This document shows positions 14,273 through 38,082 of a DNA stretch of 61,274 bases, piece by piece. Below the pieces are notes generated by a model. The model saw only the letters and a list, made by a program, of their open reading frames with translations, made no database searches and had not been told where the DNA came from. How positions within the stretch are numbered: position 1 is the first letter of the stretch; each line of letters starts with the position of its first letter. The stretch spans positions 1-61,274 of the forward strand of contig JBFMDA010000002.1 of NCBI GenBank assembly GCA_040754255.1, in the 5' to 3' direction. The DNA is from Candidatus Omnitrophota bacterium (GTDB lineage Bacteria; Omnitrophota; Gorgyraeia; Gygaellales; Profunditerraquicolaceae). The translations under genes and the position numbers were made by a program.

Positions 14273-14285
14273 ACGAATTCTGGTT

Positions 14286-15266: not shown

Positions 15267-15274
15267 CTTGGTTT

Positions 15275-16426: not shown

Positions 16427-16455
16427 TGAGTGCTGAAACTAATTCTTTTTTTGAC

Positions 16456-17442: not shown

Positions 17443-17445
17443 AGT

Positions 17446-18372: not shown

Positions 18373-19283
18373 TTGATCGGATTCAGCTCAAACCAGCCAA
18401 ACTTCTCGGCATATTTGATATCCACGCCGCTGCATATTTTATATTGCCTGCAAGATGCGCAAATCGAAGCTTTCGTCGTAACAGAACTACGGGGCAGCAT
18501 AGTCTTTTCTTTATCCTTGATATAGTACGGTGTTTCTGGAATTCCAACATAATTCTCGTAATCCGCCATAAGACAAAATGGCATGGTTTCTATCTTTATA
18601 GGAAGCTCTTTTCCGTAGCCATACAAACGCTTTAATTTATTAATCGCTTTTTTAAATTCCTTCGCAATATCAGAATATGAAATAAAAAGTTGATTGAAAA
18701 ATCTCTCGGCATTGCCTGCATACATCAGGGTGTTCAATATTATACAATCAATTTTTTCGAAAGATAGAAGCATCCTCAGGAGAGGATAGAGATCTTTGTA
18801 ATTTAGCCTGGTAAGCGTTGAACACGTATTTACCTTTAACCGAAAAATATCTTTTAAAGCAATCATATTCTTCAACCCTTGAATGGTTTGCGCATACCCA
18901 CCGGGAGTACGAGTTAAAGCTTCATGAATTTTTTTTGAACTTCCATGGACTGAAATATTGACTTCCGTTAAACCTGCTTTGACGAGCTCATCGACATAGC
19001 CCCCGTAACGCAACAATCTTCCGTTTGTTTGAAGACAAATGTGTTTATACCCTTTTTGTTTCGCCAATGTAATAAAATGAGACAAATCTTTATTTAACGT
19101 GGGTTCACAGGTAGTAAAAAGCATCGAGTCGAGCGATACGATCTTTTTACTTTGCTTTAAGAACCCTTCAGGGGTTAACCAAGCGGCGTTTTTAAAAGAC
19201 AGGTCCGGCTTTCGGTCAGAACAAAAAATACAATTATTATTACACGCAGCGCTTGTAAATATAGTAAGCCGATCGTTATCCAT
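18369..19283 (-). CDS. radical SAM protein with SPASM/twitch-like C-terminus
   Basis: FTSAACNNNCIFCSD, QTNGR, SVHGSSKKIHEALTRTPGGY and CASCRQYKICSGV. Confidence 0.75.
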   Translation of the reverse strand: MDNDRLTIFTSAACNNNCIFCSDRKPDLSFKNAAWLTPEGFLKQSKKIVSLDSMLFTTCEPTLNKDLSHFITLAKQKGYKHICLQTNGRLLRYGGYVDELVKAGLTEVNISVHGSSKKIHEALTRTPGGYAQTIQGLKNMIALKDIFRLKVNTCSTLTRLNYKDLYPLLRMLLSFEKIDCIILNTLMYAGNAERFFNQLFISYSDIAKEFKKAINKLKRLYGYGKELPIKIETMPFCLMADYENYVGIPETPYYIKDKEKTMLPRSSVTTKASICASCRQYKICSGVDIKYAEKFGWFELNPIK

Positions 19284-19322
19284 ATGTACTATGTTGCTAC
19301 CTTTCTCCTATTAGAGACTCAC

Positions 19323-21407: not shown

Positions 21408-21417
21408 AGGAGGGTTA

Positions 21418-22344
21418 TTAGTTATCCTTCCTTATAAACTCTTTCTGGCCGTATTTTCTTAGGTATTCCTGCCAGATGCCCCAGCAATTACTATTCACTG
21501 GACAATCCTGGCACTCTTTGACCTTCACATAGGCAATGATTTTATTTTTTGATACCGCATAATACTCCTTGTACTTCGTTATTGATGAATGGGGTAAAAA
21601 GTTTTCTTCATTTCTGGAGTCCCCATATCGAATAGAGTTATTTTTAAAGTATTTATGAAAATAACAACCAACGGGCGGGTTAAGCAAGCACCATGAAAAA
21701 CCAAGATTTTGTCCTTTATCTAATGCGCCTGCGATATAAGGCGATGCTTCGGATATATGCGGAGTAAGGCTTTCAAACATTGACTCATTGTTCGTTATTA
21801 TATACATAAATTCCGCCCTCTTAATCTGATACGAAAGTAAGATTTTACTGATAGAGGGAAGATATTTGTAATTCTGTTTGGTAATGGTGGTATTGGTCCC
21901 TATTTGATTGAATCCTAATTTTTTTAAATTTTCTATCCCTTTTATCAGTTGTTGGAAACTCCCGGCTGTACTGGTAAGGAAATCGTGTACCTTGGGGCTA
22001 TTTCCGTGCAATGAAAAATCAATTTCTGAAACACCGGATTTTATTAATTGGCGGGCAAAATCATCATACGCCAGCATCCTGCCGTTTGTGCTTATTCTCA
22101 CTTTTTTAAAACCGACCTTTTTTCCATATGAGATTAACTCGCAAATGTCTTGCCTTATGGTCGGCTCTCCCCCGATTAAATTAAGCCAGCTTTTCCCCTT
22201 CTTTTTTGCTGCTAAAATTTCACTTTTAACTTCTTCTGTCGTTTTTTCGGGCAGATGACGGTTCTCCCGATCATAACAAAATAAGCAACCGTTATTGCAT
22301 TTAAATCCAAATACTATTGCCGCATGATCGCTAATGTTGTTCAT
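21418..22344 (-). CDS. radical SAM protein with SPASM/twitch-like C-terminus
   Basis: FGFKCNNGCLFCYD, IGGEPT, SLHGNSPKVHDFLTSTAGSF and CQDCPVNSNCWGI. Confidence 0.75.
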   Translation of the reverse strand: MNNISDHAAIVFGFKCNNGCLFCYDRENRHLPEKTTEEVKSEILAAKKKGKSWLNLIGGEPTIRQDICELISYGKKVGFKKVRISTNGRMLAYDDFARQLIKSGVSEIDFSLHGNSPKVHDFLTSTAGSFQQLIKGIENLKKLGFNQIGTNTTITKQNYKYLPSISKILLSYQIKRAEFMYIITNNESMFESLTPHISEASPYIAGALDKGQNLGFSWCLLNPPVGCYFHKYFKNNSIRYGDSRNEENFLPHSSITKYKEYYAVSKNKIIAYVKVKECQDCPVNSNCWGIWQEYLRKYGQKEFIRKDN

Positions 22345-23273
22345 ATAGCCAACTCCCTGCCTTGAAATTCAAGGAAATATTTTTTAAATAACCCGCCGCA
22401 GCTGCTGCCTTGAGAACAGTGTTCGCATATTTTAAGTTTAATTCTATTACGTGTCGGATAACAGGATAGTGTTTCCTTTAAAAATATATTTTTAGGGCCC
22501 TTCCATTGCTCAACGGTTATTCTCGGGGACCAGTGAGCGTCATTAGAGTAAAGTTCATAATTCTTTAATGCGCAAAGCGGAAGCCCGAAAAATCTAATAA
22601 TTAGGGCTTTCTTATGCGCATATGCAACTAATCGAGGGACTGCCCCTTGTATCTCTTTCAATGGAACGACTAATTTTTTAAAATTCGCCATGCCCCTACC
22701 TTCAGGTGCAAAATTAGAAAGAAGTATTTGTTTTACTTTTCTGAAACTACTTGCCAAATCTATGATCTTTTCAAGCGAGGCAAAATTATACCGCGTAATA
22801 ACCGTGTTAATGAATAAAAAAATACCTGATTTTGAACGCTCAACGTTCTCCAATGCGTTCGTGAGTTTACCAAAGCTTTCACAATTTGAAGTATGAAAAT
22901 TATGAAGCTTTCCGTTATGGCCATGAAGAGAAAAACAAATTTCATCAACATAAAAAAGTGCTTTATCGCAGAATCTTTTTGAGGAGAATAAACCGCCGTT
23001 AGAGCTACAATACACCGTATACATCAGCCGCTTGGCAGTTTGTATTATTTCTATAAAACGGGGGTGCAAAGTGGGCTCCCCGCCCGTCAAAGTAACGTGG
23101 TGCATGCCTTTTGCAGCGAAATAATCTAATTTACTTTTTATTGAATCGAAATTTACAAAACAATTTTTAAATTTTTGTAATTGGCCTGCTTCAGAGCAAA
23201 AAATACAGCTATTGGCACATTTATAGGAAATATGAAATTCTAGCCTCTCTACCTTAGTTGGGCTTTTCATCAT
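22341..23273 (-). CDS. radical SAM protein with SPASM/twitch-like C-terminus
   Basis: ISYKCANSCIFCSE, LTGGEPTL, SLHGHNGKLH and CEHCSQGSSCGGL. Confidence 0.75.
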   Translation of the reverse strand: MMKSPTKVERLEFHISYKCANSCIFCSEAGQLQKFKNCFVNFDSIKSKLDYFAAKGMHHVTLTGGEPTLHPRFIEIIQTAKRLMYTVYCSSNGGLFSSKRFCDKALFYVDEICFSLHGHNGKLHNFHTSNCESFGKLTNALENVERSKSGIFLFINTVITRYNFASLEKIIDLASSFRKVKQILLSNFAPEGRGMANFKKLVVPLKEIQGAVPRLVAYAHKKALIIRFFGLPLCALKNYELYSNDAHWSPRITVEQWKGPKNIFLKETLSCYPTRNRIKLKICEHCSQGSSCGGLFKKYFLEFQGRELAI

Positions 23274-23275
23274 CG

Positions 23276-24694
23276 CTATCCGTACAGTAAGTATGACAGC
23301 TGAAAATCAATATTTCGGTATTCATTTTTATTCTTTTGCACTAAACCTGCGTACCTGGTCAAAAAGCGGTCATCAAGGAAGCAATTTGAATAAATGTATC
23401 TTTCGCATCTTGTGTTCGTAGAAAATTTAATACAATTTTCGTCTTTTTCCACCGGGCACATTTTTTCTATCAACGCAAGTTCCTTTGGATATAGCTTTTC
23501 GGGTTCTTCATTGAATATTTTTTGAAACAAATTTTTATCGATTTTCCCTTCCTCCTGAATAGAACTTATTATATTGAAGCGCATTTCTAAATCCTTAGTC
23601 AATTGGAACGCGAATAGTTTTGGGAAAATATCTCGTTTGAGGTTTTTTTCATAATCCTGGTAATATAGGTCCTTTACATAGTACATCTTTTTAAACGCAT
23701 GAGAAATTGCCCCCCACCCTAATCCCAAAACCGAACTATTAAACTTATACATATCATAAAATTGTAAATTTTCTTTATCTGTGCTGTAATCCTCCAACGC
23801 ATAAGGATGCGCACTGCTAATCATCTGATACGCCAAGTCAAGCATCTTTTTGCAGCGGATTACATCAGAAAAATTCAGCGTAAGGCCGTTCTTAGCAAAT
23901 CTGGTAAAAATATCGGGACAAAAAGAGTTAACGTGAATAGTATCGGGCTTTAGTTTTAAAATGTTTTTTAATGAGGCCTGGAACGATTCAATTGATTGGT
24001 ACGGGACGCCCGCCATCAAATCGACATTAATATGGCGGATCTTCAATTTCCTGCAATTTTTATATAGCTGAAAAACTAAGTTTGCATTTTGTGGCCTCTG
24101 AAGCTTCTTGAGGACATTTTTGTCCAGTGACTGCACTCCGATGGTCACTTTGTTTACCCCATACTCCTTAAGTATTTTCACTTTCTCATACGAGCATGTG
24201 TAGGGGCTAAGCTCGACCATAAATTGTTCCATATTCCCTACATTAAAATTTTTAGAAATCATCTCCATGAGTCTTTTGAGATTTTTAAAAGACAATATCG
24301 AAGGCGTACCCCCTCCTATATACACGGTTCTTGCCTTTACTCTTTTGGGGAAATCAAGTAATGTGATTTCTTTTTCCAGCGCATTAAGGAAGCGGGAATG
24401 CGATTGATCATTAGTCTGAGGGAAAGACAGGGTATTACAATAAAAACATTTGCTGACACAAAATGGAATGTGGACATATACGCCGAACCTATCGTAACTA
24501 CCTTTCTCTTTAAGGATGGATGTCGCAACAGTTACCCACGATTTTTTTACTTCTTCTAAACTTATCGCTTTTCTCTTGAGTCTCAACAAGGAATACGGTG
24601 TTCCTAAGCCATAAAAAACCAAATCCCTGGTTATGCATTTAAACAGCTCAAGCTTCCGCCTTACTTCATTACTTAAAAGGGATGAGTTCGTCAT
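23276..24694 (-). CDS. HemN/HemW-like (class C type) radical SAM protein
   Basis: YVHIPFCVSKCFYCNT motif, YIGGGTPS, and a length typical of the coproporphyrinogen-III-oxidase-like family. Confidence 0.75.
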   Translation of the reverse strand: MTNSSLLSNEVRRKLELFKCITRDLVFYGLGTPYSLLRLKRKAISLEEVKKSWVTVATSILKEKGSYDRFGVYVHIPFCVSKCFYCNTLSFPQTNDQSHSRFLNALEKEITLLDFPKRVKARTVYIGGGTPSILSFKNLKRLMEMISKNFNVGNMEQFMVELSPYTCSYEKVKILKEYGVNKVTIGVQSLDKNVLKKLQRPQNANLVFQLYKNCRKLKIRHINVDLMAGVPYQSIESFQASLKNILKLKPDTIHVNSFCPDIFTRFAKNGLTLNFSDVIRCKKMLDLAYQMISSAHPYALEDYSTDKENLQFYDMYKFNSSVLGLGWGAISHAFKKMYYVKDLYYQDYEKNLKRDIFPKLFAFQLTKDLEMRFNIISSIQEEGKIDKNLFQKIFNEEPEKLYPKELALIEKMCPVEKDENCIKFSTNTRCERYIYSNCFLDDRFLTRYAGLVQKNKNEYRNIDFQLSYLLYG

Positions 24695-25595
24695 CTGAAT
24701 ACTTTAAAAAATATTTTTTGTAAACGCCTCCGCATACGCTGTTTTTCAAGCATTGCCTGCATTTTCGCGTTTTTATTCTTCCGATATCGATCTTGAAATT
24801 GTTTTCGACATATGTGTGCGGCTCATTCCATAAGCGTATTGCGCCATCATGGTCTTTGCGATTATCGATTTTAAACGGTTCCCATAAATCATAGGAATAC
24901 GCATACCTATCTCCTAAAATACACATCGGAATACCGGAAAATCTGATTTTAATATTTTTTAACTCGCAAAATCTTATTGCATTTATTATGTGCGGGGAAA
25001 GGACGGAAAATTTAGGAAAGATTTCATAAAATGTACGGCTCCCCTCTCCTGTAGGCACAATTGACATACATTGATATTCTGTTATTCCAAAATTATGGAT
25101 CAGTTCTGCTATTTTGGCCAGGAATCTATAATTAAGATTGGTTATTGCCGTAGTCGCTTGGAGCCTGCCTTTATAATATTTCTGCAGATTTTTCATTCCT
25201 TGCAAAACTGACATAAAAGCTGCCGGATTACGGGTATTAATTGAATGGATTTTATTATTATGCCCATGTATCGAAATCATAATTTCATCAAGATAAGGCA
25301 ATGTCCTGATGCAGAACTCATACGAACTGAACATAATTGCATTGGAAATAATAAATGTATTATACTGTAACGCTTTCGACAATTTTAGTATTTCAGGAAA
25401 ATGGGTGTGCAATGTAGGCTCCCCTCCTACAAAATGGACAAGATTTGCTCCCCTGGACCTTTCGGCGACTAAAATATTCTTAATTTTTGCGAATGAAAGC
25501 TCTGAGCCATCAAGCTTATTTCTTTCGCTGCAAAAAATACACCTATTACAGCATTTTTTTATAATAAAGAGGTCAATTCGTCTGGTTTGAGCCAT
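24669..25595 (-). CDS. radical SAM protein with SPASM/twitch-like C-terminus
   Basis: IIKKCCNRCIFCSE, VGGEPTL, SIHGHNNKIH and CRQCLKNSVCGGV. Confidence 0.75.
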   Translation of the reverse strand: MAQTRRIDLFIIKKCCNRCIFCSERNKLDGSELSFAKIKNILVAERSRGANLVHFVGGEPTLHTHFPEILKLSKALQYNTFIISNAIMFSSYEFCIRTLPYLDEIMISIHGHNNKIHSINTRNPAAFMSVLQGMKNLQKYYKGRLQATTAITNLNYRFLAKIAELIHNFGITEYQCMSIVPTGEGSRTFYEIFPKFSVLSPHIINAIRFCELKNIKIRFSGIPMCILGDRYAYSYDLWEPFKIDNRKDHDGAIRLWNEPHTYVENNFKIDIGRIKTRKCRQCLKNSVCGGVYKKYFLKYSDDELIPFK

Positions 25596-26529
25596 ATTTG
25601 CAGGGAAGAATCGAACAGTACATACTAATCTCTTTTGGCCGCGAAGCGTTTAACAAGGACAACCCCAGGGCCGTAGGATAAATACAACAGTTATATGCGC
25701 CAGAAAAATTATTTGCTCGGTAAATAAATTTATTTACGGACGAAAGGGGAACTTTCAGCTTCTTTATATCTATCCATCTTTTTTCCAGATTAGAATTGCA
25801 CTGGAATTCCCCTGTTTCATAAATTAAATAATTCTTCAGGGAATCTACTTTACCGGATTTTTTAAATTTGACCGCTGCAAGATAAAATACATTGTTCTTG
25901 GGTGAATTCTTGAAAAATGCGCTAAATTTAGTTTTGATGCCGTGGGGCAAAAAGCTAAATTTATTTAATTCTTGTAGCGAACAGTATTTAAAGTAAAGCT
26001 TCATCGACATTTGATTACTTTTCGGGGAACACACTAACGCAAGCGCACAGATTCCGTATCGCACATACAAACCCAATATATCCGGATCATAGCCCGATAT
26101 TATACACAACTTATGCAAAATGTCGTGTTTTAGAAAGGGGACGCATTCAACTTCAATCTTTAAAATGGGAGATTGATCTGATTCAATCCACTCAAGCCCC
26201 AAAGTAATTGGAAAGGATTTAATCACTTGGATTGCTTTTTCCGCTTGTCGGCGTAATTCCCCCGCATAACTCAATCTCATTATCGAACGTATTTTATTGA
26301 GAAACTCCTTCTTCTCGCCGGAATCATTAATACTAAATCTTAAAAGACGATTGGGCATTTTTTTAATTTTAAAAGAAAAATCGAACTTAAAAGAATTAGG
26401 CCTAATCTTGTGGCACCCATCAAAAAGGATTTTGGTAATACGCGGGAAATCCTTCTTTTGATAAATATTATTTTCCCTCGCAATTTTTTCAATAATGTTT
26501 CTGTAACACGCAAAGATGTTAGGGTTCAT
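25573..26529 (-). CDS. hypothetical protein, paralog of the C-terminal domain of the 625-aa rSAM fusion; possible ABBA-type prenyltransferase fold
   Basis: Shares KFDFS, LRFSxNDxGEKKxF, TxGLxWxxS...PxLK and K-x-Y strand ends (MKLYFKY, LKNYLIYE) with residues ~320-625 of ORF 27576..29453. FDFS and LYF strands resemble NphB/CloQ-type sequences from memory. Confidence 0.35.
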   Translation of the reverse strand: MNPNIFACYRNIIEKIARENNIYQKKDFPRITKILFDGCHKIRPNSFKFDFSFKIKKMPNRLLRFSINDSGEKKEFLNKIRSIMRLSYAGELRRQAEKAIQVIKSFPITLGLEWIESDQSPILKIEVECVPFLKHDILHKLCIISGYDPDILGLYVRYGICALALVCSPKSNQMSMKLYFKYCSLQELNKFSFLPHGIKTKFSAFFKNSPKNNVFYLAAVKFKKSGKVDSLKNYLIYETGEFQCNSNLEKRWIDIKKLKVPLSSVNKFIYRANNFSGAYNCCIYPTALGLSLLNASRPKEISMYCSILPCKYGSNQTN

Positions 26530-26538
26530 TTTTAAGGA

Positions 26539-27579
26539 TTAAAAACTGCGATTGCCTAATGCCTTATTTAGATATGCAACAAAATTTGACATTAATTGGC
26601 CCGCTAAGATAGTATTATTCAGGTATTTGGTAACATTATTTTCACGGAAAATTATTTCCATTGCTTCTTCGTTAGTAAGCCGCTTTTTCTCAAACTCGTC
26701 CATACTCTCTTTTATTTCGTTGATATTCCCCAGAATGAACTTCCTTTTCCTCTCGTAGTTTTGAATTAAATAACTGATGCACGCAGAGTAGATGTTCCCA
26801 TCAAAATCCACAGATATCTCAGTATTCATCCTAAACGGAGGAAACCATTCTGTCAGATTTTGCAACCGGATATCATCTTTTAGCCTTAGTTTTAAATACA
26901 GGTTCCTTAACGTAATCAGGTTTCTTGCCAAAACTATTCTATCATTATTTGACCACTTTACTCCGCAGGCAATCATTATAAATATGTTCCTAAATCCTAA
27001 TTGAACTAAATGGCTGAAATTGTCAACAATTCTTCCTACTGTCATGGGTGAAACTACCATGCTCACCTGGCAATCTGCATTATATTTAAAAATTATAGGG
27101 AGGTTGCGTACAATAAGAGAATATGAATCCGGCAAGCCATTCTTTTGCGGCCTATTTAATCTCTGCGACCCGGGCCCTCCATCAAGGCTTAGTTCAAGAA
27201 GTACATTGTGTTCTTTAAAGAACCTTACTTTTTCTTCGTTCAAGAGCACCCCGTTTGTTGTAAGAATCGGGGTTAACTTTCTTTTTCTGGCATTTGCTAC
27301 TTTGTGCGCATACAGTATGCCTTTCTTTAAAACCTTAAAAGGCAGCATGAGGGGCTCACCGCCGAAAAAATGTAATTGTAAAACGTCAGCCGAGGAAGTC
27401 ATCAAGAAGTCGACCGATTTAAGCAGCACGTCTTCGGACATATATCTCTTTGCATTTTGAGAAACAAAGCAATATTTACATTTCAAACAACAATCGTGTG
27501 TTAATAACAACAGCAATCTAGCTGTTCTAAAATCAGCCCGACCGGCCACTTGGTTGTTTCTTTTTTGTGAGGAAATCAT
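26539..27579 (-). CDS. AnSME/HxsC-like radical SAM protein without recognisable SPASM cysteines
   Basis: LTHDCCLKCKYCF, FFGGEPLM and TTNGVLLNEEKVRFF...SLDG. The C-terminal third lacks a Cx2Cx5C block. Paralog of ORF 29450..30379. Confidence 0.65.
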   Translation of the reverse strand: MISSQKRNNQVAGRADFRTARLLLLLTHDCCLKCKYCFVSQNAKRYMSEDVLLKSVDFLMTSSADVLQLHFFGGEPLMLPFKVLKKGILYAHKVANARKRKLTPILTTNGVLLNEEKVRFFKEHNVLLELSLDGGPGSQRLNRPQKNGLPDSYSLIVRNLPIIFKYNADCQVSMVVSPMTVGRIVDNFSHLVQLGFRNIFIMIACGVKWSNNDRIVLARNLITLRNLYLKLRLKDDIRLQNLTEWFPPFRMNTEISVDFDGNIYSACISYLIQNYERKRKFILGNINEIKESMDEFEKKRLTNEEAMEIIFRENNVTKYLNNTILAGQLMSNFVAYLNKALGNRSF

Positions 27580-29453
27580 CGTTTAACCGTAAAATAAACG
27601 TCGACCTTTTGCGAACGCCTTGCGTAATCTATAGCCGCAATCACCGGGAACACGTTTCTTCCTTTTAAAGCGCACAAACTGGCTATTTTTGAAAAAACTT
27701 TTTCTGACGCTTCGTCTTTTGAATTAAGTAACATTTTCCTGATTTCTGGCATAATGATTTTAGAATCCTTAATTTGCCTAATTTCATATATCTTATATAA
27801 CTTAATTGAGTGGACAAGGCCGTCCGGTTGGAATCTTCTAGTAATGTAATAAAATGCTTTTGATCTATCTCCATTGTTATCTAAAATTGATTTCAAAATT
27901 TTGGAATTTGATTCCAGCCTATTATTTTTTAAAAGGGCTAAAAAGCCTACATCAGTCAACTTATCATACTTGCAATATATTTTTAAGTTACACTTTCCCC
28001 TTGGGATAAAATCTACGCAAATCGCGCCAATAACTTCGTGAGGATTAATTTGTAATTTTCGATAATCGATATCCAATAGCTCACAAATCCGTTGGAGAAT
28101 AATCCTGATTTCTGGCTGGGCAAAGTAATGGAACAATTCTTCAAAATAAACTTTTAGTCTTGGGCAACTTGTCCCGCTTAACCAATCTAAGCCAATGGTC
28201 GTTTGCTGCTTATTGCCAAACGGGACCATTATACGTAAAAGCTCATTCAATTGATTCATAGGGAAGGAATCGCCGAAAAGTTGGAAGATTCCCTTTAATT
28301 TGTGTGTGAACCTCTTTTTTTCTCCAAAATCATTATAACTAAATCTTAAACTTCTTGGATTATTATTGCTGGCCGAAATAGAAAAATCGAATTTTTGATT
28401 ATCTCCAAGCCATGTTTCGTCAAAACCTGAAAATAAAATATCTTTTATTTCACTAACCTTGCCATCCTGTATCTTCAGGCCATAGTGCGTAATGAGTAAA
28501 TTAGAAATATCCTCAAAAATAGAAACGGTAGAATCGCTGCCTGTGTTATGTATTGGAATTCTTTTTCTAACGGGCTTAAATTCTTCCCATCCGAATTTCT
28601 GCGGATACTCCCTCCAAGGGCCTTCACACACTGCGTAGTATCGGCACGAAGGACATTTTGTTGACTTACTTTTCCCCTCCTTTTTACGCACGATCCCAAA
28701 ATTTTCTATAACTCCGTTTACATCGAATATCTTTGTTTCGGGCAAAATCTTCTCAGCGATATAATCCTCAAAACCAGCCATAAAACAGTAAGGAATTGCC
28801 TCGGTCATCACTCTCTTCCCGGCGGATATGCCTTTTTCTAGGGCCAGCTTAACAAACGGCTCGACAAGCGTCATTCGGGGTACGATAGAATCAAAGTTAT
28901 CCTTTGCGCTTCCTAAAGGGTGAGGGAATGCGAATTGGAACTGGTCAACTCCGAGCCTAATCAATACGTCTGCTATCGAGGGCAAATACGGAAAATTAGA
29001 CTTGGTTATGACGGTATTGGTAATAACCGTCTGCCCTAGTTTTTTTAAGTTTGCTATCCCATCAACAGTTTGTGTAAAGCTGCCGGGAGAACTTGTGAGG
29101 TAATCATGCATTTGGGGGGTACTTCCGTGCAAGGCGGGAGAAAACTCATTCGCACCGCACTTAATCGCTTTTTTGCAAAAATCAAGATAAGAAAAAAAAC
29201 GACCATTAGACTGGACCTGGATAGTGTTGAAATTCAATGCTCTGGCAAAGGAAACTAATTGAAAGAAGTCCTTATGCAAGGTAGGCTCTCCACCGGTGAA
29301 GACTATATCGCAACAGCTCTGCCTAGCTTGCTCCATTTCTTTTCTTATAATACTGGCATCCCTGCTTCCATATGCATTGCGTTTTTCGCCCTGAACGCAA
29401 AATTTGCAGAAATTATTACAATTGAATCCGATCTTTATATCGGCTTTCATCAA
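27576..29453 (-). CDS. radical SAM (N-terminal ~300 aa) fused to an ABBA-prenyltransferase-like domain (C-terminal ~300 aa)
   Basis: IGFNCNNFCKFC, TGGEPTL, ALHGSTPQMHDYLTSSPGSF and CPSCRYYAVCEGP. Then KFDFSISAS, LRFSYNDFGEKKRF, PRLKVYFE, LKIYCKY and IKLYKIYE. Confidence 0.5.
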   Translation of the reverse strand: MMKADIKIGFNCNNFCKFCVQGEKRNAYGSRDASIIRKEMEQARQSCCDIVFTGGEPTLHKDFFQLVSFARALNFNTIQVQSNGRFFSYLDFCKKAIKCGANEFSPALHGSTPQMHDYLTSSPGSFTQTVDGIANLKKLGQTVITNTVITKSNFPYLPSIADVLIRLGVDQFQFAFPHPLGSAKDNFDSIVPRMTLVEPFVKLALEKGISAGKRVMTEAIPYCFMAGFEDYIAEKILPETKIFDVNGVIENFGIVRKKEGKSKSTKCPSCRYYAVCEGPWREYPQKFGWEEFKPVRKRIPIHNTGSDSTVSIFEDISNLLITHYGLKIQDGKVSEIKDILFSGFDETWLGDNQKFDFSISASNNNPRSLRFSYNDFGEKKRFTHKLKGIFQLFGDSFPMNQLNELLRIMVPFGNKQQTTIGLDWLSGTSCPRLKVYFEELFHYFAQPEIRIILQRICELLDIDYRKLQINPHEVIGAICVDFIPRGKCNLKIYCKYDKLTDVGFLALLKNNRLESNSKILKSILDNNGDRSKAFYYITRRFQPDGLVHSIKLYKIYEIRQIKDSKIIMPEIRKMLLNSKDEASEKVFSKIASLCALKGRNVFPVIAAIDYARRSQKVDVYFTVKR

Positions 29454-30379
29454 TTTAAAGTAGAAATAAATTCGGTAAGCTTATTATCGATAGTATGCGT
29501 GGATTTTAAAACTCTGAAAGGAGTGCATTTTTTAACAATGTTACCGAGGTCAGCGTTACGCATCATACGCTTTATGCTTTCAAAACTTCTAACCGAGTTC
29601 ACGTTTCCAAGCTTAAATTCTTTCGCATACTCAATAAAAGGCTTGGCAAGAAAAACATTGCTTGGAAAAATATCGCCGTTGCAATCAACAGTTACATTCT
29701 GATTAAAAAGAGGGACGCTTCCTAAGTTAAATTTATTTTTTACTTTAATATTGAAATCAGCCCCGAACTTGTTTATAAATATAGAAATCCGTTTCAAAGC
29801 TGACGCTATTTTTCTAATACTAACTTGATCCCAGTAAGCGAAATAGCTGGGAAGAAAATTAAAACTTCTAAATCCTAACCTCAAGAAATTAAAGAAGCGT
29901 TCCTCCAAGTTGCGAAGAGAATGTCGATCAATAAAAAAATTAAGGCTAAGATGCGAGAGGAGAAATAGCGAACTAAGACCGCCTCTGTTAGAAAACGTAT
30001 TAGAGTTGACGATTATTTCAAAATTACTGAGAGACCTGAAAAAATTTATTTTCTCTTCAGTTAACAATAAGCCATTCGTGGTGAGGTTAAGAAAAACGGG
30101 TCTTTTTTGCCTTGCCGCAACCTTCTTGGAATATACATATATTTTTTTTACCGTTTCAAATTCCAAGAGAGGCTCTCCCCCAAACAGCCTTATTAAAAAA
30201 CCACCGGGATCTAAGGCAGAATTAGAAAATAGGCTTAGGCTCTGTTTGGCGGTAGAAAATAACATCGAACATCTTTTTTTTAATAAAGGGCAATTACGGC
30301 ATGAAAGGTTACAGCGACGGGTGACAGTGAGCGTTAAGATATTATCTTCGGAGAATACATTACCGCAAGAAAGATACAT
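29450..30379 (-). CDS. HxsC-like radical SAM protein (AnSME-like core, no SPASM cysteines)
   Basis: VTRRCNLSCRNCP, FGGEPLL, TTNGLLLTEEKINFF. Starts 9 nt after the stop of the HxS-repeat peptide gene. Confidence 0.55.
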   Translation of the reverse strand: MYLSCGNVFSEDNILTLTVTRRCNLSCRNCPLLKKRCSMLFSTAKQSLSLFSNSALDPGGFLIRLFGGEPLLEFETVKKIYVYSKKVAARQKRPVFLNLTTNGLLLTEEKINFFRSLSNFEIIVNSNTFSNRGGLSSLFLLSHLSLNFFIDRHSLRNLEERFFNFLRLGFRSFNFLPSYFAYWDQVSIRKIASALKRISIFINKFGADFNIKVKNKFNLGSVPLFNQNVTVDCNGDIFPSNVFLAKPFIEYAKEFKLGNVNSVRSFESIKRMMRNADLGNIVKKCTPFRVLKSTHTIDNKLTEFISTLN

Positions 30380-30388
30380 ATAAAAGAA

Positions 30389-30559
30389 TCACCATTGCCC
30401 GTGGGAACCGTGGGAGCTATGAGAACCGTGAGAACTATGCCCGCCCCTGTTTCCTGAGCCAAAATCATTCGATATATAACTTCCGTGGGTGTCCCATTGG
30501 GCATATACATTTTCCATGGCTTGAATAATCAAAAAGATAGTCATTAAACTTATCCCCAT
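30389..30559 (-). CDS. hxsA: exported His-Xaa-Ser repeat peptide (HxsA-like), 56 aa; candidate maturation substrate
   Basis: The internal ATG at 30557-30559 of the 124-aa track ORF gives MGISLMTIFLIIQAMENVYAQWDTHGSYISNDFGSGNRGGHSSHGSHSSHGSHGQW. This has a signal-peptide-like N-terminus and tandem HSS-HGS-HSS-HGS-HGQ encoded at 30395-30439. The start codon is uncertain because there is no strong RBS. Confidence 0.6.
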   Translation of the reverse strand: MGISLMTIFLIIQAMENVYAQWDTHGSYISNDFGSGNRGGHSSHGSHSSHGSHGQW

Positions 30560-30623
30560 TTTTACCGCATTTTTTCTTGTAATCCTTGCTTCCTCGCTAG
30601 AAAGAAAAAACTTAAGGTCCTTC

Positions 30624-31187
30624 TTAATTTGCGGAAGTTTCTTCAAGGCTCGCCTCCTTTTTTTTCCAATAATTTTCAAATACTTGACCTGCCTCTTCTT
30701 GCGTGAAACCGTGCGTAGTTTGTTCCAAAAACTTGGCCTTCTCTCTTTCTTTGATTTGGGCATCTACGGCCTTACGATCCTCAACAAGCTTAGGCTCTGA
30801 GCCATCAGGGCACGTAAGGTAGGAATGCGAGAACATCTTCGAGTCGCATACAAAACGAAGATCAACTATTTTTCTTTCCCAACCGTTTTTATACTTAAAG
30901 TCCCTTTTCCCGCTGATAGGATCGCTGTAAATTACCACCTTCAGCCCTCTCATGTATGGAGGCGGATTCTGGATATTATTAATCAAATAGGGTTTCCCTC
31001 GTACCAGGCCTATTCTCCCTTCCTCAACTTTTTGCAACTCCCCCTTACATACAGGGCATACATCGCCTTCCTTCGGTGAAATGAAAACAACCTCATCATT
31101 TGGACAGCCTCTAATTTCAACGGCACACGCAACACTTGAATGTAAAAGGACAAATACAAAAATAGCTATAAAAGGAATCCTCTTCAT
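30624..31187 (-). CDS. exported protein with CPxC motif
   Basis: Signal peptide MKRIPFIAIFVFVLLHSSVACA|VE. ISPKEGDVCPVCKGELQKV resembles the short CPxCGMxL heavy-metal-binding domain (from memory). Charged C-terminus. Confidence 0.6.
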   Translation of the reverse strand: MKRIPFIAIFVFVLLHSSVACAVEIRGCPNDEVVFISPKEGDVCPVCKGELQKVEEGRIGLVRGKPYLINNIQNPPPYMRGLKVVIYSDPISGKRDFKYKNGWERKIVDLRFVCDSKMFSHSYLTCPDGSEPKLVEDRKAVDAQIKEREKAKFLEQTTHGFTQEEAGQVFENYWKKKEASLEETSAN

Positions 31188-31200
31188 CAGCCCCTCCGCT

Positions 31201-32622
31201 TCAAGAAATCCACTTAGAAAAGATTTTTTTATACTCCTCGTCGTTCAGCCTGTCAAACAGGTATCCCAAAATAAAACTATTCATCTTGCATAATCTGCTA
31301 TTGGGCAACTGACAGAATAAGTTTCCTGTCTCTGCATAATTGATAACAGGGCAAATGCCACAATACGGCTTATACGCGCAATAATCGCAATACACGCTTT
31401 CCTGGCAAGAAGCAAAACAACTTGCAGGGATATTTACTGAATTAATGATATCTTTAAAGCTGTCTGTGCGCACGTTGCCAATCAAAAACGTGTCCTCCTG
31501 AAGCATCCTGGCTTCATCACAAGTATACACTTTTCCATCGTAATTATAGACGATCTGGCCGATGCCTGCACCACAGGGAGAGCGCAGGTCTAAGTAGGAA
31601 GGGTCTCGTTTTAATAAAATTTTGACGAGGAATATTTTTGCCGTCCTTTCAGACATTGTTGTCTTACCCGCTATGTTAAGCTTAACTAAATAGTCGAGGG
31701 CTTTTTTGTAAAAGTTAGCAAACTCTTCTGAAGTGTAACCTATTCTTTTTCTGTTTGCTTTTGACATCCCCAGGTTACTTATGGGGCGGAGATGAATTTC
31801 TTGAAATCCCCACTTGCGATATTCCTCAATTATCTCCTTAGGGTATTTGAGAGAAAATTTAGACAAGGTCAATAAAGCGCTAAGCCGCCTTTTGTGATTA
31901 TCGAATTTTTTGACCATTTTTATCTTTTGGGTAGTCAAATCGTATGAACTCCTGCCGGAAAAAAATTTCCTATTCCTGTCGTGCAGCGCCCGCGGGCCAT
32001 CTAAAGAGGTGCAGATGCCGACATTTTGATCGATGAGGAATTTGAGCTTATCTTTTGACAGAAGGCTAAGATTAGATACAAGCGTGATATTTACTAATTT
32101 TTTAAATGTTTTATTCATTGCAATTGTTTTCCGGCAAATAAATTCTATAGTTTCCCAGTTTGCTAAGGGCTCTCCTCCCTGCAATTCAATAGTAATGGCT
32201 TTTGAAGGAGATTCGAATATTGCCTCTAATGTCTTTTCTGCAGTGGCCTTGTCCATATCGTAGCCTTTTGCAGAAAACCCCTTGGCTGAGGCCTGGCAAT
32301 ATATACAGGAATGATTGCATCTTAAAGTGACTACTATGATGTGTAATGTCGGACCGCGCCAGATGAAGGAATTCTTCTGTCGGTATTGTTCAATAAGCTC
32401 GAAATTTTTAAGACGGTTCCTTATAAAACCCTTTCCTATCAACTCCTGATACACGGGTTCGTTTTTTCTTATCTCATTGTTCACTAACTTATTGAAAACA
32501 CTTTTTTTTAAAAAAATGTGCTCTCCTGCTTCAGTAGTCAACAGCACGTTTCCATTACATTCCCGGAAACGGAAAAAAGCCAAATTCCCTATCTCATCAA
32601 TTTTCTTTAACGCAGAACGCAT
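31201..32622 (-). CDS. hxsB: HxsB-like radical SAM/SPASM peptide maturase
   Basis: 473 aa. N-terminal ~90-aa non-rSAM domain, VTLRCNHSCIYCQASA, LQGGEPL and a full SPASM block CDYCAYKPYCGICP. Confidence 0.6.
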   Translation of the reverse strand: MRSALKKIDEIGNLAFFRFRECNGNVLLTTEAGEHIFLKKSVFNKLVNNEIRKNEPVYQELIGKGFIRNRLKNFELIEQYRQKNSFIWRGPTLHIIVVTLRCNHSCIYCQASAKGFSAKGYDMDKATAEKTLEAIFESPSKAITIELQGGEPLANWETIEFICRKTIAMNKTFKKLVNITLVSNLSLLSKDKLKFLIDQNVGICTSLDGPRALHDRNRKFFSGRSSYDLTTQKIKMVKKFDNHKRRLSALLTLSKFSLKYPKEIIEEYRKWGFQEIHLRPISNLGMSKANRKRIGYTSEEFANFYKKALDYLVKLNIAGKTTMSERTAKIFLVKILLKRDPSYLDLRSPCGAGIGQIVYNYDGKVYTCDEARMLQEDTFLIGNVRTDSFKDIINSVNIPASCFASCQESVYCDYCAYKPYCGICPVINYAETGNLFCQLPNSRLCKMNSFILGYLFDRLNDEEYKKIFSKWIS

Positions 32623-32623
32623 A

Positions 32624-32833
32624 TCAGGGGGATTTTATTGAAGCTAACACATAATTACAGAATTCTTGCTTTATTACCTTATGATACCCATTATCATAAT
32701 CGTATACACCTACCCGAATATAACGGTTTTTTTGTTTTATCGTAAATTTAGCTATGCCCTGGAAGGCTTTTATAGCTTTTAGAATTGATGATTGGGGATA
32801 GAGGTTTTTATGGAAATCGATGAATAACATCAA
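32624..32833 (-). CDS. small HxsD-like protein (short paralog)
   Basis: 69 aa. YPQSSILKAIKAF...FCNYVLAS parallels YPLEAIYATCYVF...FLNELLNNTLR of the neighbouring 142-aa protein. Confidence 0.35.
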   Translation of the reverse strand: MMLFIDFHKNLYPQSSILKAIKAFQGIAKFTIKQKNRYIRVGVYDYDNGYHKVIKQEFCNYVLASIKSP

Positions 32834-33258
32834 CGGGACTTTTTGCGTTTGTATTTCTCTTCCCAGGGGATCGCAATGCCCTCGGGATCATTTTGCCAAG
32901 ACTGATTTGTTTTCTCTTCCGAAGCGACAACCCCGTCGATTTCTTTCTTGGGCTGCGAGAAAAATAAAGCCTCTTTGACTATCATTTCCCGGATACGCTG
33001 ATTTCTTTTGGATATTTTAAACCGCAAGGTATTATTTAACAGTTCATTCAGGAATTCGCCTTTTAACAGATTGTGATTCCGCCTGTTGGAAGCTTTAGGC
33101 GTAAAAACGATTTTTATCCGCTGCCTCACCTCGTCTAAAAAAAGGTAGTACCTATCCACAAAGACATAACAAGTAGCGTATATTGCCTCAAGGGGATAGA
33201 TTCTGGGGTTTATAAGGAATTCCTGTTCTTTTTTGGCGTATTTAGACATAACCCGCAC
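32830..33258 (-). CDS. HxsD-like protein
   Basis: 142 aa. IYPLEAIYATCYVFVDRYY...KGEFLNELLNNTLRFKI resembles the LLNDYxLRE signature I recall for the HxsD family. 4-nt overlap with the next gene. Confidence 0.4.
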   Translation of the reverse strand: MRVMSKYAKKEQEFLINPRIYPLEAIYATCYVFVDRYYLFLDEVRQRIKIVFTPKASNRRNHNLLKGEFLNELLNNTLRFKISKRNQRIREMIVKEALFFSQPKKEIDGVVASEEKTNQSWQNDPEGIAIPWEEKYKRKKSR

Positions 33259-38081: not shown

Positions 38082-38082
38082 A

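What the first reader, a model, noticed from the sequence alone, without database searches (positions are those of the whole stretch)
30389..30559. A 56-aa exported peptide ending in tandem His-Xaa-Ser triplets is the candidate precursor
The minus strand, read from the internal ATG at 30557-30559, gives MGISLMTIFLIIQAMENVYAQWDTHGSYISNDFGSGNRGGHSSHGSHSSHGSHGQW. It has a Sec-type signal peptide with a VYA|Q site. A 36-residue Gly/Ser/His tail follows, containing HGS once and then perfectly tandem HSS-HGS-HSS-HGS-HGQ (DNA 30395-30439). His-Xaa-Ser repeats define the TIGRFAMs HxsA family, whose chemistry is, to my knowledge, experimentally uncharacterised. The stop codon lies 9 nt before the next rSAM gene. 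This is the only peptide-sized gene I could place in any island gap.
Basis: partly seen in the sequence, partly recalled or inferred. Interest (0 to 1): 0.8.

Follow-up and report, generated by a model that had tools for sequence, protein, structure and literature searches.

The report
HxsA3/A4-type His-Xaa-Ser repeat peptide gene
This is a real, conserved small gene (85 residues, not 56) for a His-Xaa-Ser repeat peptide of a family already named in databases; it lies in a 20-gene string with 15 radical-SAM motifs, so it is a good but not new candidate substrate for unusual peptide chemistry.

Summary
The His-Xaa-Ser tail is present at the stated coordinates and is the only such run in the window. 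It is not chance. At least 772 cluster representatives share the architecture. A close ortholog (L032) gives dN/dS = 0.06. The two 18-nt repeat units differ only at synonymous sites.

The gene boundary was wrong. Translation most likely starts at TTG 30646-30644, preceded by AAGGAGG and a 6-nt spacer, giving 85 aa. The extra 29 residues (KKLPxIKKDLKxFLxSEEG/AKIxKK) are the most conserved part of the family.

The peptide matches NCBIfam HxsA3/HxsA4 over its full length but below both cutoffs. It does not match TIGR03979. HxsD, an HxsD-like 69-aa gene and HxsB lie upstream and pass their cutoffs; there is no canonical HxsC, only HxsC-like paralogs.

HxsD-HxsB-peptide synteny recurs in Omnitrophota, CPR bacteria, Elusimicrobia and DPANN archaea. 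The related HXS system was characterised in 2026 as an anti-phage system, so "uncharacterised" is outdated.

New here: two ABBA prenyltransferase-fold domains in the island, one fused to a radical-SAM enzyme.

Verdict: a new member of a known kind, of moderate interest.

The parts
30389..30646 (-). Revised peptide gene, 85 aa plus stop: MKKLPQIKKDLKFFLSSEEARITRKNAVKMGISLMTIFLIIQAMENVYAQWDTHGSYISNDFGSGNRGGHSSHGSHSSHGSHGQW
   Evidence: The start aligns with the homolog Met. The HxsA3 profile is covered at positions 2-79 of 81. L032 keeps the same TTG and L030 has ATG at that codon. dN/dS is 0.063.
30653..30659 (-). Shine-Dalgarno AAGGAGG, 6 nt upstream of the TTG start; it lies inside the 3' end of the upstream 187-aa gene
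   Evidence: Read directly from the sequence. It is identical in L032.
30560..30646 (-). Conserved, highly charged N-terminal extension (residues 1-29; 9 K/R and 3 D/E), family motif LPxIKKDIKxFLxSEEGKIxKK. Proposed leader or recognition segment.
   Evidence: Consensus and near-invariant columns P5, K8, F14, L15, E18, E19. The same motif occurs in CPR, DPANN and Elusimicrobia peptides. Charge count.
30500..30559 (-). Hydrophobic segment with a possible signal-peptidase site (residues 30-49, MGISLMTIFLIIQAMENVYA).
   Evidence: The most hydrophobic 15-mer starts at median residue 31 in 176 relatives. AxA-like motifs are only weakly enriched, 149 observed against 124 expected.
30392..30499 (-). 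Core or tail (residues 50-85, 36 aa): a variable linker followed by the HxS repeats and the conserved C-terminal ...SHGSHGQW
   Evidence: Invariant H73, H76, S78, H79 and W85. The C-terminal residue is W in 89, Y in 22 and C in 21 of 176 relatives.
30395..30439 (-).
   Evidence: The repeat units differ only at synonymous positions.
32830..33258 (-). HxsD
   Evidence: TIGR03976, 59.8 bits against a cutoff of 50. There are 444 homologs carrying PF27806. AF2 model at pLDDT 81 with no significant PDB fold match.
32624..32833 (-). HxsD-like 69-aa protein
   Evidence: NF038315, 63 bits against a cutoff of 41. A gene at the same position occurs in L001, L004, L006-L011, L013, L015, L026 and L030-L032.
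31201..32622 (-). HxsB radical SAM/SPASM maturase
   Evidence: TIGR03978, 481 bits against a cutoff of 370. Pfam Radical_SAM and SPASM. The nearest solved structure is CteB, 5WGG.
30624..31187 (-). 187-aa Cys-rich protein with an N-terminal hydrophobic leader; its last 23 nt overlap the peptide start
   Evidence: No family hit. A weakly similar gene sits at the same position in L008, and L032 has the same 23-nt overlap.
29450..30379 (-). 309-aa radical-SAM gene starting 9 nt after the peptide stop (CNLSCRNC motif)
   Evidence: The ortholog directly follows the peptide in L001.
28557..29453 (-). HxsC4-like radical-SAM domain (N-terminal half of the 625-aa gene). This is the best-conserved accessory enzyme of the family.
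   Evidence: NF038332, 166 bits against a cutoff of 500; TIGR03977, 101.5 bits against 267.9. Separate ~300-aa genes in other loci are 50-60% identical to it.
27576..28556 (-). ABBA prenyltransferase-fold domain fused to the HxsC4-like enzyme
   Evidence: AF2 model at pLDDT 88.9 and pTM 0.89. Foldseek top hits are bacterial dimethylallyl-tryptophan synthases, E about 1e-9 and TM 0.65-0.74. The R-x-K-x-Y and K-x-Y motifs are invariant.
25573..26529 (-). Stand-alone paralog (318 aa) of the prenyltransferase-fold domain
   Evidence: BLASTP gives 28% identity at E = 7e-17. hmmsearch with A4 gives 2.8e-96.
12929..27579 (-). Rest of the co-directional gene string: 11 further radical-SAM genes (12 of the island's 15 CX3CX2C motifs), the 318-aa prenyltransferase-fold paralog listed above, a DUF483 protein and a 383-aa unknown. 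The radical-SAM genes include HxsC-like paralogs, a HemN-like enzyme, a two-domain 694-aa enzyme and a B12-binding enzyme.
   Evidence: Intergenic gaps run from -26 to +39 nt.

Best explanation
The ORF is a real gene of 85 codons, from TTG 30646 to TGA 30389. It encodes an HxsA3/HxsA4-type His-Xaa-Ser repeat peptide, the dedicated substrate of an expanded Hxs-like radical-SAM maturation operon.

Shown:
- The frame is under strong purifying selection.
- The three-part architecture is conserved across hundreds of relatives: a charged 29-residue N-terminal extension, a roughly 20-residue hydrophobic segment, and a tail of HxS triplets ending in an aromatic residue.
- The gene almost always follows HxsD-(HxsD-like)-HxsB and precedes several further radical-SAM genes.

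Inferred:
- The N-terminal extension acts as a leader that holds the peptide for the cytoplasmic enzymes. The ~97-residue N-terminal extension of HxsB corresponds in position to the N-terminal region of CteB, which is an RRE domain by my recollection. HxsD and HxsD-like proteins are the other candidates for this role.
- HxsB and the HxsC-like paralogs install covalent modifications in the HxS triplets. In E. coli HXS, a +8 Da change was mapped to one repeat.
- In this genome, one or both prenyltransferase-fold proteins may alkylate the invariant C-terminal Trp.
- The hydrophobic segment then takes the product across or into the membrane, possibly with cleavage after VYA49. That would leave a 36-residue His-rich, net-acidic peptide outside the cytoplasm.
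- Its physiological role is unknown. Metal binding or another envelope-associated function is more likely than electrostatic DNA capture.
For: - Gene reality and start codon.
- Family size and architecture.
- All 32 aligned relatives hit both HxsA4 and HxsA3, and NCBI names two Omnitrophota relatives HxsA4.
- Neighbouring HxsB, HxsD and HxsD-like proteins score above their curated cutoffs.
- HxsD-HxsB-peptide synteny occurs in Omnitrophota, CPR, Elusimicrobia and an Aenigmatarchaeota archaeon. Locus L001 is gene-for-gene collinear with the window, including the flanking housekeeping genes.
- The operon is tight: gaps of -26 to +39 nt and 15 CX3CX2C motifs.
- Precedent for rSAM-dependent modification within an HxS repeat, and for export: PMC13128918.
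- Prenyltransferase fold.
- The C-terminal residue is W, Y or WC in about 75% of 176 relatives.
- X in H-X-S is Gly, Ser or Ala in 84% of cases and never among the common basic residues, and the tail carries 1 K/R against 2 D/E.
Against: - There is no expression or mass-spectrometry data for any HxsA3/A4 member.
- The peptide scores below the curated cutoffs of both HxsA3 (51.3 against 65) and HxsA4 (33.7 against 55).
- No protein reaches the HxsC or HxsC4 cutoffs.
- Signal-peptidase cleavage is only weakly supported, 149 sites observed against 124 expected.
- The HxsD model shows no significant match to any solved structure, peptide-binding folds included.
- Prenyltransferase-fold homologs were found in only 4-6 of about 30 loci, although the C-terminal Trp is near-universal. 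Prenylation therefore cannot explain the conservation of that Trp.
- No protease or transporter gene was identified among the genes examined (12929-33858).
- None of the 85-, 124- or 56-aa forms is present in the protein collection, although this contig is.
Confidence: 0.62

Rival explanations
1. One reading: a 56-aa pre-peptide starting at ATG 30559 with an ordinary Sec signal peptide, belonging to the TIGR03979 HxsA family.
For: ATG is the commoner start codon. The segment MGISLMTIFLIIQAMENVYA looks like the h- and c-regions of a signal peptide.
Against: - There is no Shine-Dalgarno sequence before this ATG, whereas AAGGAGG precedes the TTG.
- The 29 upstream codons are the best-conserved part of the family.
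- Those codons evolve under purifying selection. The window and L032 differ there by only two amino acids despite many silent changes.
- L030 has Ile at this position.
- The 56-aa form covers only positions 31-79 of the HxsA3 profile.
- TIGR03979 gives no hit at E <= 10.
Confidence: 0.04
2. The protein is not a cleaved, diffusible peptide. It is a membrane-anchored envelope protein (N-terminus in, HxS tail out) that acts like E. coli HxsA as a matured protein effector against phage genome entry.
For: - The characterised homologous system is anti-phage, and its HxsA acts in the periplasm after HxsBCD-dependent maturation.
- AxA enrichment is weak, so the hydrophobic segment may be an uncleaved anchor.
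- Some relatives carry large extra domains after the HxS run, so they behave as proteins rather than peptides.
Against: - There is no peptidoglycan-binding domain.
- X in H-X-S is Gly, Ser or Ala rather than the Arg of the one canonical HxsA compared here (A. salmonicida), and the tail is net acidic. The proposed electrostatic DNA binding therefore does not carry over.
- The locus is collinear, housekeeping flanks included, between genomes whose proteins are only 40-48% identical. That pattern is unlike a mobile defence island.
- By contrast, canonical hxs lies largely on conjugative plasmids, next to restriction and transposon genes.
- PADLOC returns only generic rSAM hits.
- No relatives were found on viral contigs.
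Confidence: 0.2
3. The peptide is a sacrificial precursor of a small cofactor or metallophore built from a few C-terminal residues, as with PqqA/PQQ, MftA/mycofactocin or methanobactin. The many radical-SAM enzymes would build a non-peptidic product.
For: - The last ~13 residues are near-invariant, with a terminal aromatic residue.
- An unusually large number of radical-SAM enzymes surrounds one tiny gene, including HemN-like and B12-binding types.
- The cluster is retained in small CPR and DPANN genomes.
Against: - By my recollection, PqqA and MftA carry no hydrophobic export segment, whereas this family always does.
- Repeat number varies from 1 to 21, which is unexpected if only the C-terminal residues matter.
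- No peptidase gene that could release a small product was found among the genes examined.
Confidence: 0.1
4. The ORF is a chance low-complexity ORF, or a slippage-generated repeat with no coding function.
For: The gene is short, overlaps the upstream gene by 23 nt, and was not found in the protein collection under any of three start choices.
Against: dN/dS is 0.063. Differences between repeat units are synonymous only. There are 772 homologous representatives. Position next to HxsB is conserved.
Confidence: 0.01

Closest known systems
NCBIfam NF038309 (HxsA3) and NF038313 (HxsA4) His-Xaa-Ser repeat proteins, with the companion models NF038315 (HxsD-like) and NF038332 (HxsC4)
   Same: - The window peptide aligns over the full length of both profiles: HxsA3 positions 2-79 of 81 at E = 7.6e-14, and HxsA4 positions 1-79 of 93 at E = 5e-8.
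- All 32 aligned relatives hit both models. Two Omnitrophota relatives are named HxsA4 by NCBI, one of them in a locus collinear with the window.
- The 69-aa neighbour passes the HxsD-like cutoff.

   Different: - The scores are below both curated cutoffs: 51.3 against 65, and 33.7 against 55.
- The HxsC4-like enzyme reaches only 166 of the 500 bits required.
- These families exist as database models only. I found no paper that describes or tests them; one search for those names timed out and a repeat with one name also timed out, and the HxsB and His-Xaa-Ser searches returned only the canonical system.
Canonical HXS anti-phage system (HxsA/TIGR03979, HxsB, HxsC, HxsD) of Pseudomonadota (Li et al., Nat Commun 2026, PMC13128918; family first defined by Haft and Basu 2011, as cited in PMC9062424)
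   Same: - It has tandem H-x-S triplets in an exported substrate.
- HxsB and HxsD orthologs score above cutoff, and the genes lie in one operon with the D-B order upstream.
- An N-terminal region is required in addition to the hydrophobic signal.

   Different: - Canonical HxsA is about 190-215 aa, has a C-terminal peptidoglycan-binding domain and has its HxS repeats in mid-protein. In the one canonical HxsA compared here (A. salmonicida) the repeats are Arg-rich.
- There is no BLASTP alignment to the window peptide and no TIGR03979 hit.
- The canonical system has four genes in the order D-B-C-A, is 99.7% Pseudomonadota and is often plasmid-borne.
- Here there is no canonical HxsC but 15 radical-SAM motifs, two prenyltransferase-fold domains and a stable chromosomal position.
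Radical-SAM/SPASM RiPP systems with leader-guided maturation, such as the SCIFF/CteB thioether peptides
   Same: - HxsB's nearest solved relative is CteB (5WGG), with a comparable ~100-residue N-terminal extension before the radical-SAM core.
- The system has a short precursor, a conserved N-terminal region, a repetitive three-residue core motif and maturase genes adjacent.
- From my own knowledge, not tested here: three-residue cyclophane ('triceptide') systems likewise act on three-residue motifs.
   Different: The precursor carries a hydrophobic export segment between the leader and the core, which is unusual for radical-SAM RiPPs. The chemistry on H-x-S is unknown. No leader peptidase or ABC exporter was identified.
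ABBA-fold indole prenyltransferases (bacterial DMATS such as 5-DMATS, IptA, PriB and CymD; the cyanobactin enzyme PagF)
   Same: The predicted 10-strand barrel of the 625-aa gene's C-terminal half matches them at TM 0.65-0.74 and E 1e-9 to 1e-7. It keeps R-x-K-x-Y and K-x-Y strand motifs.
   Different: - Sequence identity is 10-15% and there is no Pfam hit.
- The domain is fused to a radical-SAM enzyme here, whereas the 8 detectable homologs are 318-403 aa, with no precomputed Pfam domain.
- The substrate and the prenyl donor are untested.

Membership tests
HxsA, TIGR03979 (canonical His-Xaa-Ser repeat protein) | Score at or above the curated cutoff of the TIGR03979 HMM | tested here: not met
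   No hit even at E <= 10 for the 85-, 56- or 124-aa forms. Only 4 of 32 relatives touch this model.
HxsA, TIGR03979 (canonical His-Xaa-Ser repeat protein) | Tandem His-Xaa-Ser triplets | tested here: met
   HSS-HGS-HSS-HGS(-HGQ) at 30395-30439, plus one earlier HGS.
HxsA, TIGR03979 (canonical His-Xaa-Ser repeat protein) | C-terminal peptidoglycan-binding domain and basic residues in the repeats, as in the characterised E. coli and A. salmonicida proteins | tested here: not met
   No Pfam domain. X is Gly or Ser. The tail has 1 K/R against 2 D/E. BLASTP against A. salmonicida HxsA gives no alignment.
HXS four-gene system (HxsA-B-C-D) | Adjacent HxsB above cutoff | tested here: met
   TIGR03978, 481.4 bits against a cutoff of 370.
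HXS four-gene system (HxsA-B-C-D) | Adjacent HxsD above cutoff | tested here: met
   TIGR03976, 59.8 bits against a cutoff of 50.
HXS four-gene system (HxsA-B-C-D) | Adjacent HxsC above cutoff | tested here: not met
   Best TIGR03977 scores are 146.7 bits (the 694-aa gene) and 101.5 bits (the 625-aa gene), against a cutoff of 267.9.
HXS four-gene system (HxsA-B-C-D) | Anti-phage activity by blocking DNA entry | not testable with these tools
   Indirect evidence only: no PADLOC model hit beyond generic rSAM, stable chromosomal synteny, and no viral-contig relatives.
HxsA3, NF038309 | Score at or above the curated cutoff (65 bits) | tested here: not met
   51.3 bits, E = 7.6e-14, profile positions 2-79 of 81. 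This is clear homology that falls short of the equivalog threshold.
HxsA4, NF038313 | Score at or above the curated cutoff (55 bits) | tested here: not met
   33.7 bits, E = 5e-8, profile positions 1-79 of 93. Relatives P0019 and P0020 are named HxsA4 by NCBI, and P0020's locus is collinear with the window.
HxsA3/A4 clade (as delimited here by alignment A1) | Architecture: LPxIKKDIKxFLxSEEGKIxKK extension, a ~20-residue hydrophobic segment, HxS repeats and an aromatic C-terminus | tested here: met
   The window sequence carries every near-invariant column of A1.
HxsA3/A4 clade (as delimited here by alignment A1) | Gene position immediately downstream of HxsD-(HxsD-like)-HxsB | tested here: met
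   In the window the order is HxsD, HxsD-like, HxsB, a 187-aa gene, then the peptide. The same order is seen in most related loci that reach far enough upstream.
Sec-exported pre-protein with a cleavable signal peptide | Hydrophobic core followed by a -3/-1 small-residue site; experimental or SignalP support | tested here: inconclusive
   The hydrophobic core is present and conserved. AxA-like sites occur in 149 of 176 relatives against 124 expected by shuffling. SignalP is not available, and the 29-residue n-region is atypical.
RiPP precursor (leader and core, modified by adjacent enzymes) | Demonstrated post-translational modification of the core by the neighbouring enzymes | not testable with these tools
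   The only precedent is the canonical system: +8 Da on the SHRSS motif (PMC13128918).

The most novel reading that the evidence does not exclude
The HxsA3/A4 peptides of Omnitrophota, CPR bacteria and DPANN archaea are not phage-defence effectors. They are precursors of a heavily cross-linked, exported His-rich product, made by an assembly line of ten or more radical-SAM enzymes. In some lineages the product would also be prenylated on its invariant C-terminal Trp by an ABBA prenyltransferase fused to a radical-SAM enzyme. The result would be a new RiPP class, for example a lipidated metal-binding peptide at the cell surface. Its importance would explain why organisms with small genomes keep a cluster of roughly 15-20 kb.
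Probability: 0.15. Interest if true: 0.8.

Novelty: new member of a known kind. Interest (0 to 1): 0.4.

Why it matters
- The canonical HXS system has only just been shown to be a radical-SAM-matured anti-phage effector, and its chemistry is still unsolved (+8 Da within one HxS repeat).
- The A3/A4 branch documented here is the minimal form of the substrate: about 85 aa with no extra domain. It is widespread in uncultivated lineages and is surrounded by far more radical-SAM enzymes.
- A correct gene model matters in practice. Any co-expression experiment using the 56-aa form would omit the 29 residues that are most likely needed for enzyme recognition.
- The prenyltransferase-fold domains suggest a modification beyond those expected of the radical-SAM enzymes.
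- As a database-level identification, however, the finding repeats what NCBIfam already encodes.

Tried and rejected
- TIGR03979 membership: no hit.
- HxsD as a leader-binding domain: the AF2 model is good in its core, but Foldseek against the PDB finds nothing significant. The best match has E = 0.015 and TM 0.31, with only weak Pcc1/ferredoxin-like resemblance. A profile search against PDB sequences also found nothing.
- The DUF5838 protein in locus L004 as a relative of the prenyltransferase-fold domain: rejected by hhalign, probability 0.4%.
- Defence-system signal: PADLOC gives only generic radical-SAM similarity to viperins. No relatives were found in IMG/VR viral contigs.
- Prenyltransferase homolog co-occurring with a C-terminal Trp: the homolog is present in the window, L001 and L002/L003, and weakly in L016 and L025. 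It is absent within +/-10 kb in other loci whose peptides also end in GQW. It is therefore an accessory and not the reason the Trp is conserved.
- AxA cleavage-site enrichment: only modest, 149 observed against 124 expected.
- Promoter and terminator scans: not above the shuffle expectation. The only notable site is a 10/12 promoter-like match just upstream of the 198-aa gene, at 33909-33881.
- Exact look-up of the 85-, 124- and 56-aa forms in the protein collection: none present.
- Literature: one search for HxsA3/HxsA4/HxsC4/HxsA2 timed out, as did a repeat with HxsA4 alone. An Omnitrophota, radical SAM and peptide search also timed out.
- Literature, continued: the Omnitrophota plus radical SAM search, and the two of its papers I opened, and the titles and abstracts from the Patescibacteria plus ranthipeptide search, showed nothing on this cluster.
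- The 318-aa protein against PDB sequences: no hit.
Full report
**1. Observation**

On the minus strand, the frame that ends at TGA 30391-30389 reads ...NRGGHSSHGSHSSHGSHGQW*. The five triplets HSS-HGS-HSS-HGS-HGQ occupy 30395-30439, exactly as stated. A radical-SAM gene starts at ATG 30379, 9 nt after the stop. A six-frame scan of the 61,274-nt window finds no other run of two or more H-x-S/T units.

The repeat is not a recent slippage product. The two 18-nt HSSHGS units differ at three positions, all synonymous.

**2. Gene model**

Several lines of evidence place the start 29 codons upstream.

- An in-frame TTG lies at 30646-30644, preceded by AAGGAGG (30659-30653) and a 6-nt spacer. No such site precedes the ATG.
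- From the TTG the product is 85 aa. It aligns over the full length of NCBIfam HxsA3 (profile positions 2-79 of 81, 51.3 bits, E = 7.6e-14). The 56-aa form covers only positions 31-79 and scores 26.5 bits.
- In an alignment of 32 homologs, the window's first residue falls on the homologs' initiator Met.
- Two closer orthologs were recovered through their HxsD genes. L032 (HxsD 78% identical) has the same AAGGAGG-N6-TTG and the same 23-nt overlap with the upstream gene.
- Window against L032 gives 21.8 synonymous and 8.2 non-synonymous differences over 83 codons, so dN/dS = 0.063.
- The longer 124-aa ORF from ATG 30763 adds 39 residues that have no counterpart in any homolog.

None of the three forms is in the 15-billion-protein collection, although this contig is (its HxsD is P0041). 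The gene therefore seems not to have been called with any of these starts.

**3. Family**

A word-indexed search found 40 homologs of 76-136 aa, all from metagenomes or MAGs. NCBI names two Omnitrophota proteins 'His-Xaa-Ser repeat protein HxsA4'. A profile search of 1.84 billion representatives found 772 at E <= 1e-3 and 189 at E <= 1e-10. All 32 aligned members hit both HxsA4 and HxsA3, and only 4 touch TIGR03979.

Statistics for 176 members:

- The most hydrophobic 15-mer starts at median residue 31.
- The count of H-x-S/T units has median 6 and range 1-21.
- The C-terminal residue is W in 89, Y in 22 and C in 21 (mostly ...GGWC). GQW is the commonest ending.
- The middle residue X is Gly 44%, Ser 22% and Ala 19%. 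Basic residues are essentially absent.

It returned 24 loci from Omnitrophota, Parcubacteria/Paceibacterota, Moranbacteria, Saccharibacteria, Gracilibacteria, Elusimicrobia, Myxococcales/Deltaproteobacteria, and the DPANN archaea Iainarchaeum and Aenigmatarchaeota. No relative was found on IMG/VR viral contigs.

**4. Genomic context**

Upstream on the same strand lie four genes:

- HxsD: TIGR03976, 59.8 bits against a cutoff of 50.
- A 69-aa HxsD-like gene: NF038315, 63 bits against 41.
- HxsB: TIGR03978, 481 bits against 370.
- A 187-aa Cys-rich protein with a hydrophobic N-terminus and no family match.

Downstream there are 13 further radical-SAM genes as far as 12929. With HxsB, that makes 15 CX3CX2C motifs in 14 co-directional genes, with gaps of -26 to +39 nt. 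Several of these genes are HxsC- or HxsC4-like and share a C-terminal CxxCx5C motif. None reaches the curated cutoffs; the best scores are TIGR03977 146.7 against 267.9 and NF038332 171.8 against 500.

The order HxsD-(HxsD-like)-HxsB-[0 or 1 gene]-peptide recurs in most of the related loci that reach far enough upstream, including an Aenigmatarchaeota locus. Two accessory radical-SAM enzymes are also widely conserved:

- a ~300-aa enzyme, 50-60% identical to the N-terminal half of the window's 625-aa gene;
- a ~380-aa enzyme, 42-48% identical to the first half of the 694-aa gene.

Locus L001, from an Omnitrophota MAG, is collinear with the window gene for gene, including the flanking Memo/AMMECR1, RsmE and MtaB genes, at 30-60% amino-acid identity. 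This suggests that the window comes from an Omnitrophota relative and that the locus is vertically inherited.

**5. Prenyltransferase fold**

The C-terminal 326 residues of the 625-aa gene have no Pfam match. With a 10-sequence alignment they fold at pLDDT 88.9 and pTM 0.89 into five ββαα units.

Foldseek against the PDB returns bacterial dimethylallyl-tryptophan synthases as the top hits: 5-DMATS, IptA, PriB, CymD, TleC and MpnD, at E 1e-9 to 1e-7 and TM 0.65-0.74. The cyanobactin enzyme PagF also appears.

The invariant residues include R133-x-K135-x-Y137, K192-x-Y194, K252-x-Y254, Y321, R71 and E79. From my own knowledge, this is the DMATS-type diphosphate-binding pattern.

The 318-aa gene at 25573-26529 is a paralog, at E = 7e-17. 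In L001 the two halves of the 625-aa gene are separate genes.

Homologs of this domain were detected only in the window, L001 and L002/L003, and weakly in L016 and L025. It is therefore an accessory module. It cannot by itself explain the near-universal aromatic C-terminus.

**6. Comparison with the known system**

A 2026 paper (PMC13128918) shows that the four-gene HXS system of Pseudomonadota is an anti-phage system. In that system:

- HxsA has a signal peptide, five HxS repeats and a peptidoglycan-binding domain.
- The gene order is D-B-C-A in 99.6% of systems, and 99.7% of systems are in Pseudomonadota.

I retrieved a canonical locus from an Aeromonas salmonicida plasmid. Its HxsA is 192 aa, with HRSHRSHSSHRSHSSHRSHYS in mid-protein, and it does not align with the window peptide.

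The window system shares the substrate motif, HxsB and HxsD. It differs as follows:

- The substrate is an 85-aa peptide with no peptidoglycan-binding domain.
- Its repeats are neutral.
- It has a conserved 29-residue N-terminal extension.
- There is no canonical HxsC.
- There are many additional radical-SAM enzymes.
- There are two prenyltransferase-fold domains.
- The locus is chromosomal and syntenic.

**7. Mechanism**

Shown: the gene is real, selected and syntenic with the Hxs maturases.

Inferred:

- The N-terminal extension acts as a leader for cytoplasmic maturation. HxsB's nearest solved relative is CteB (5WGG), which has a comparable N-terminal extension; that the CteB extension is an RRE is my recollection, not a result here.
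- HxsD's predicted fold has no significant match in the PDB.
- Radical-SAM enzymes modify the HxS triplets.
- The prenyltransferase-fold proteins may alkylate Trp85.
- The hydrophobic segment mediates export, possibly with cleavage after VYA49.

Support for cleavage is weak: 149 of 176 relatives have an AxA-like site, against 124 expected by shuffling.

Function remains open. The acidic, Arg-free tail argues against the DNA-binding model proposed for E. coli HxsA.

**8. Verdict**

The gene model, the named HMM and the claim that the chemistry is uncharacterised need correction.

The family is already encoded in NCBIfam (HxsA3, HxsA4, HxsD-like and HxsC4), so this is a new member of a known kind, although that kind is known only bioinformatically. 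Interest is moderate, at 0.4. The main added value lies in three things:

- the corrected 85-aa gene model;
- the breadth of distribution in CPR, DPANN and Omnitrophota;
- the prenyltransferase-fold domains.

Noticed in passing
window 27576-28556 (-) and 25573-26529 (-): Two paralogous domains with no Pfam match are predicted with high confidence to adopt the ABBA aromatic-prenyltransferase barrel. Their top structural matches are bacterial dimethylallyl-tryptophan synthases. One of the two is fused to an HxsC4-like radical-SAM domain in a 625-aa ORF. In the collinear Omnitrophota locus L001 the two halves are separate genes.
   Followed up: yes
window 12929-32622 (-): There are 15 CX3CX2C radical-SAM motifs in 14 co-directional, tightly packed genes (gaps -26 to +39 nt). 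They include a HemN-like enzyme, a two-domain 694-aa enzyme and a B12-binding enzyme, and they are interspersed with a DUF483 protein and a 383-aa unknown.
   Followed up: partly
window 32624-32833 (-): A 69-aa TTG-start gene between HxsD and HxsB passes the NCBIfam HxsD-like (NF038315) cutoff. It recurs at the same position in many related loci.
   Followed up: yes
P0285, P0241, P0278; L010 3311-4825; L013 11223-12890; P0230, P0267: Some family members continue past the HxS run. Three carry a Hint/intein-like domain that begins at a Cys right after the repeats; P0285 hits PT-HINT at 64 bits. Others carry a ~300-aa domain of unknown family that begins ...SCCPF(I/V)xxWNG. The short '...GGWC' peptides end at what looks like the same junction, which hints at C-terminal autoprocessing in part of the family.
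   Followed up: partly
L017 (Iainarchaeum), L027 (Aenigmatarchaeota), L007, L010-L012, L014-L016, L018-L022, L025 (CPR): The same peptide family occurs in DPANN archaea and many CPR bacteria, and HxsD-HxsB are adjacent to it wherever the locus reaches far enough upstream. The cluster is large for lineages usually described as having small genomes.
   Followed up: partly
window 30624-31187 (-): A 187-aa protein with a hydrophobic N-terminus and CxxC-type Cys pairs has no family match. Its last 23 nt overlap the peptide's start codon and contain the peptide's Shine-Dalgarno sequence. L032 has the same overlap, and a weak homolog sits at this position in L008.
   Followed up: partly
window 33262-33858 (-): A 198-aa protein with a hydrophobic N-terminus and a VVTYYPSPYGSY motif has no family match. 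Weakly similar genes sit just upstream of HxsD in L001, L002 and L006. The best promoter-like site of the region (10/12 match) lies just upstream, at 33909-33881.
   Followed up: no
window 36597-39423 (-) and 10936-11754 (-): An AmmeMemoRadiSam set lies just upstream of the island: a Memo+AMMECR1 fusion of 499 aa and a radical-SAM enzyme matching TIGR04337 at 389 bits. A second stand-alone Memo gene lies at the island's far end. A further radical-SAM gene is at 39755-40885.
   Followed up: no
window 30389-30763 (-): None of the 85-, 124- or 56-aa translations is present in the 15-billion-protein collection, even though the contig's HxsD is. The peptide gene was apparently not called with any of these starts in the source annotation.
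   Followed up: yes
window 1069-1139 (-) and 39491-39566 (-): tRNA-Gly(CCC) and tRNA-Ala(CGC) genes. The second lies between the AmmeMemoRadiSam radical-SAM gene and the next radical-SAM gene.
   Followed up: no
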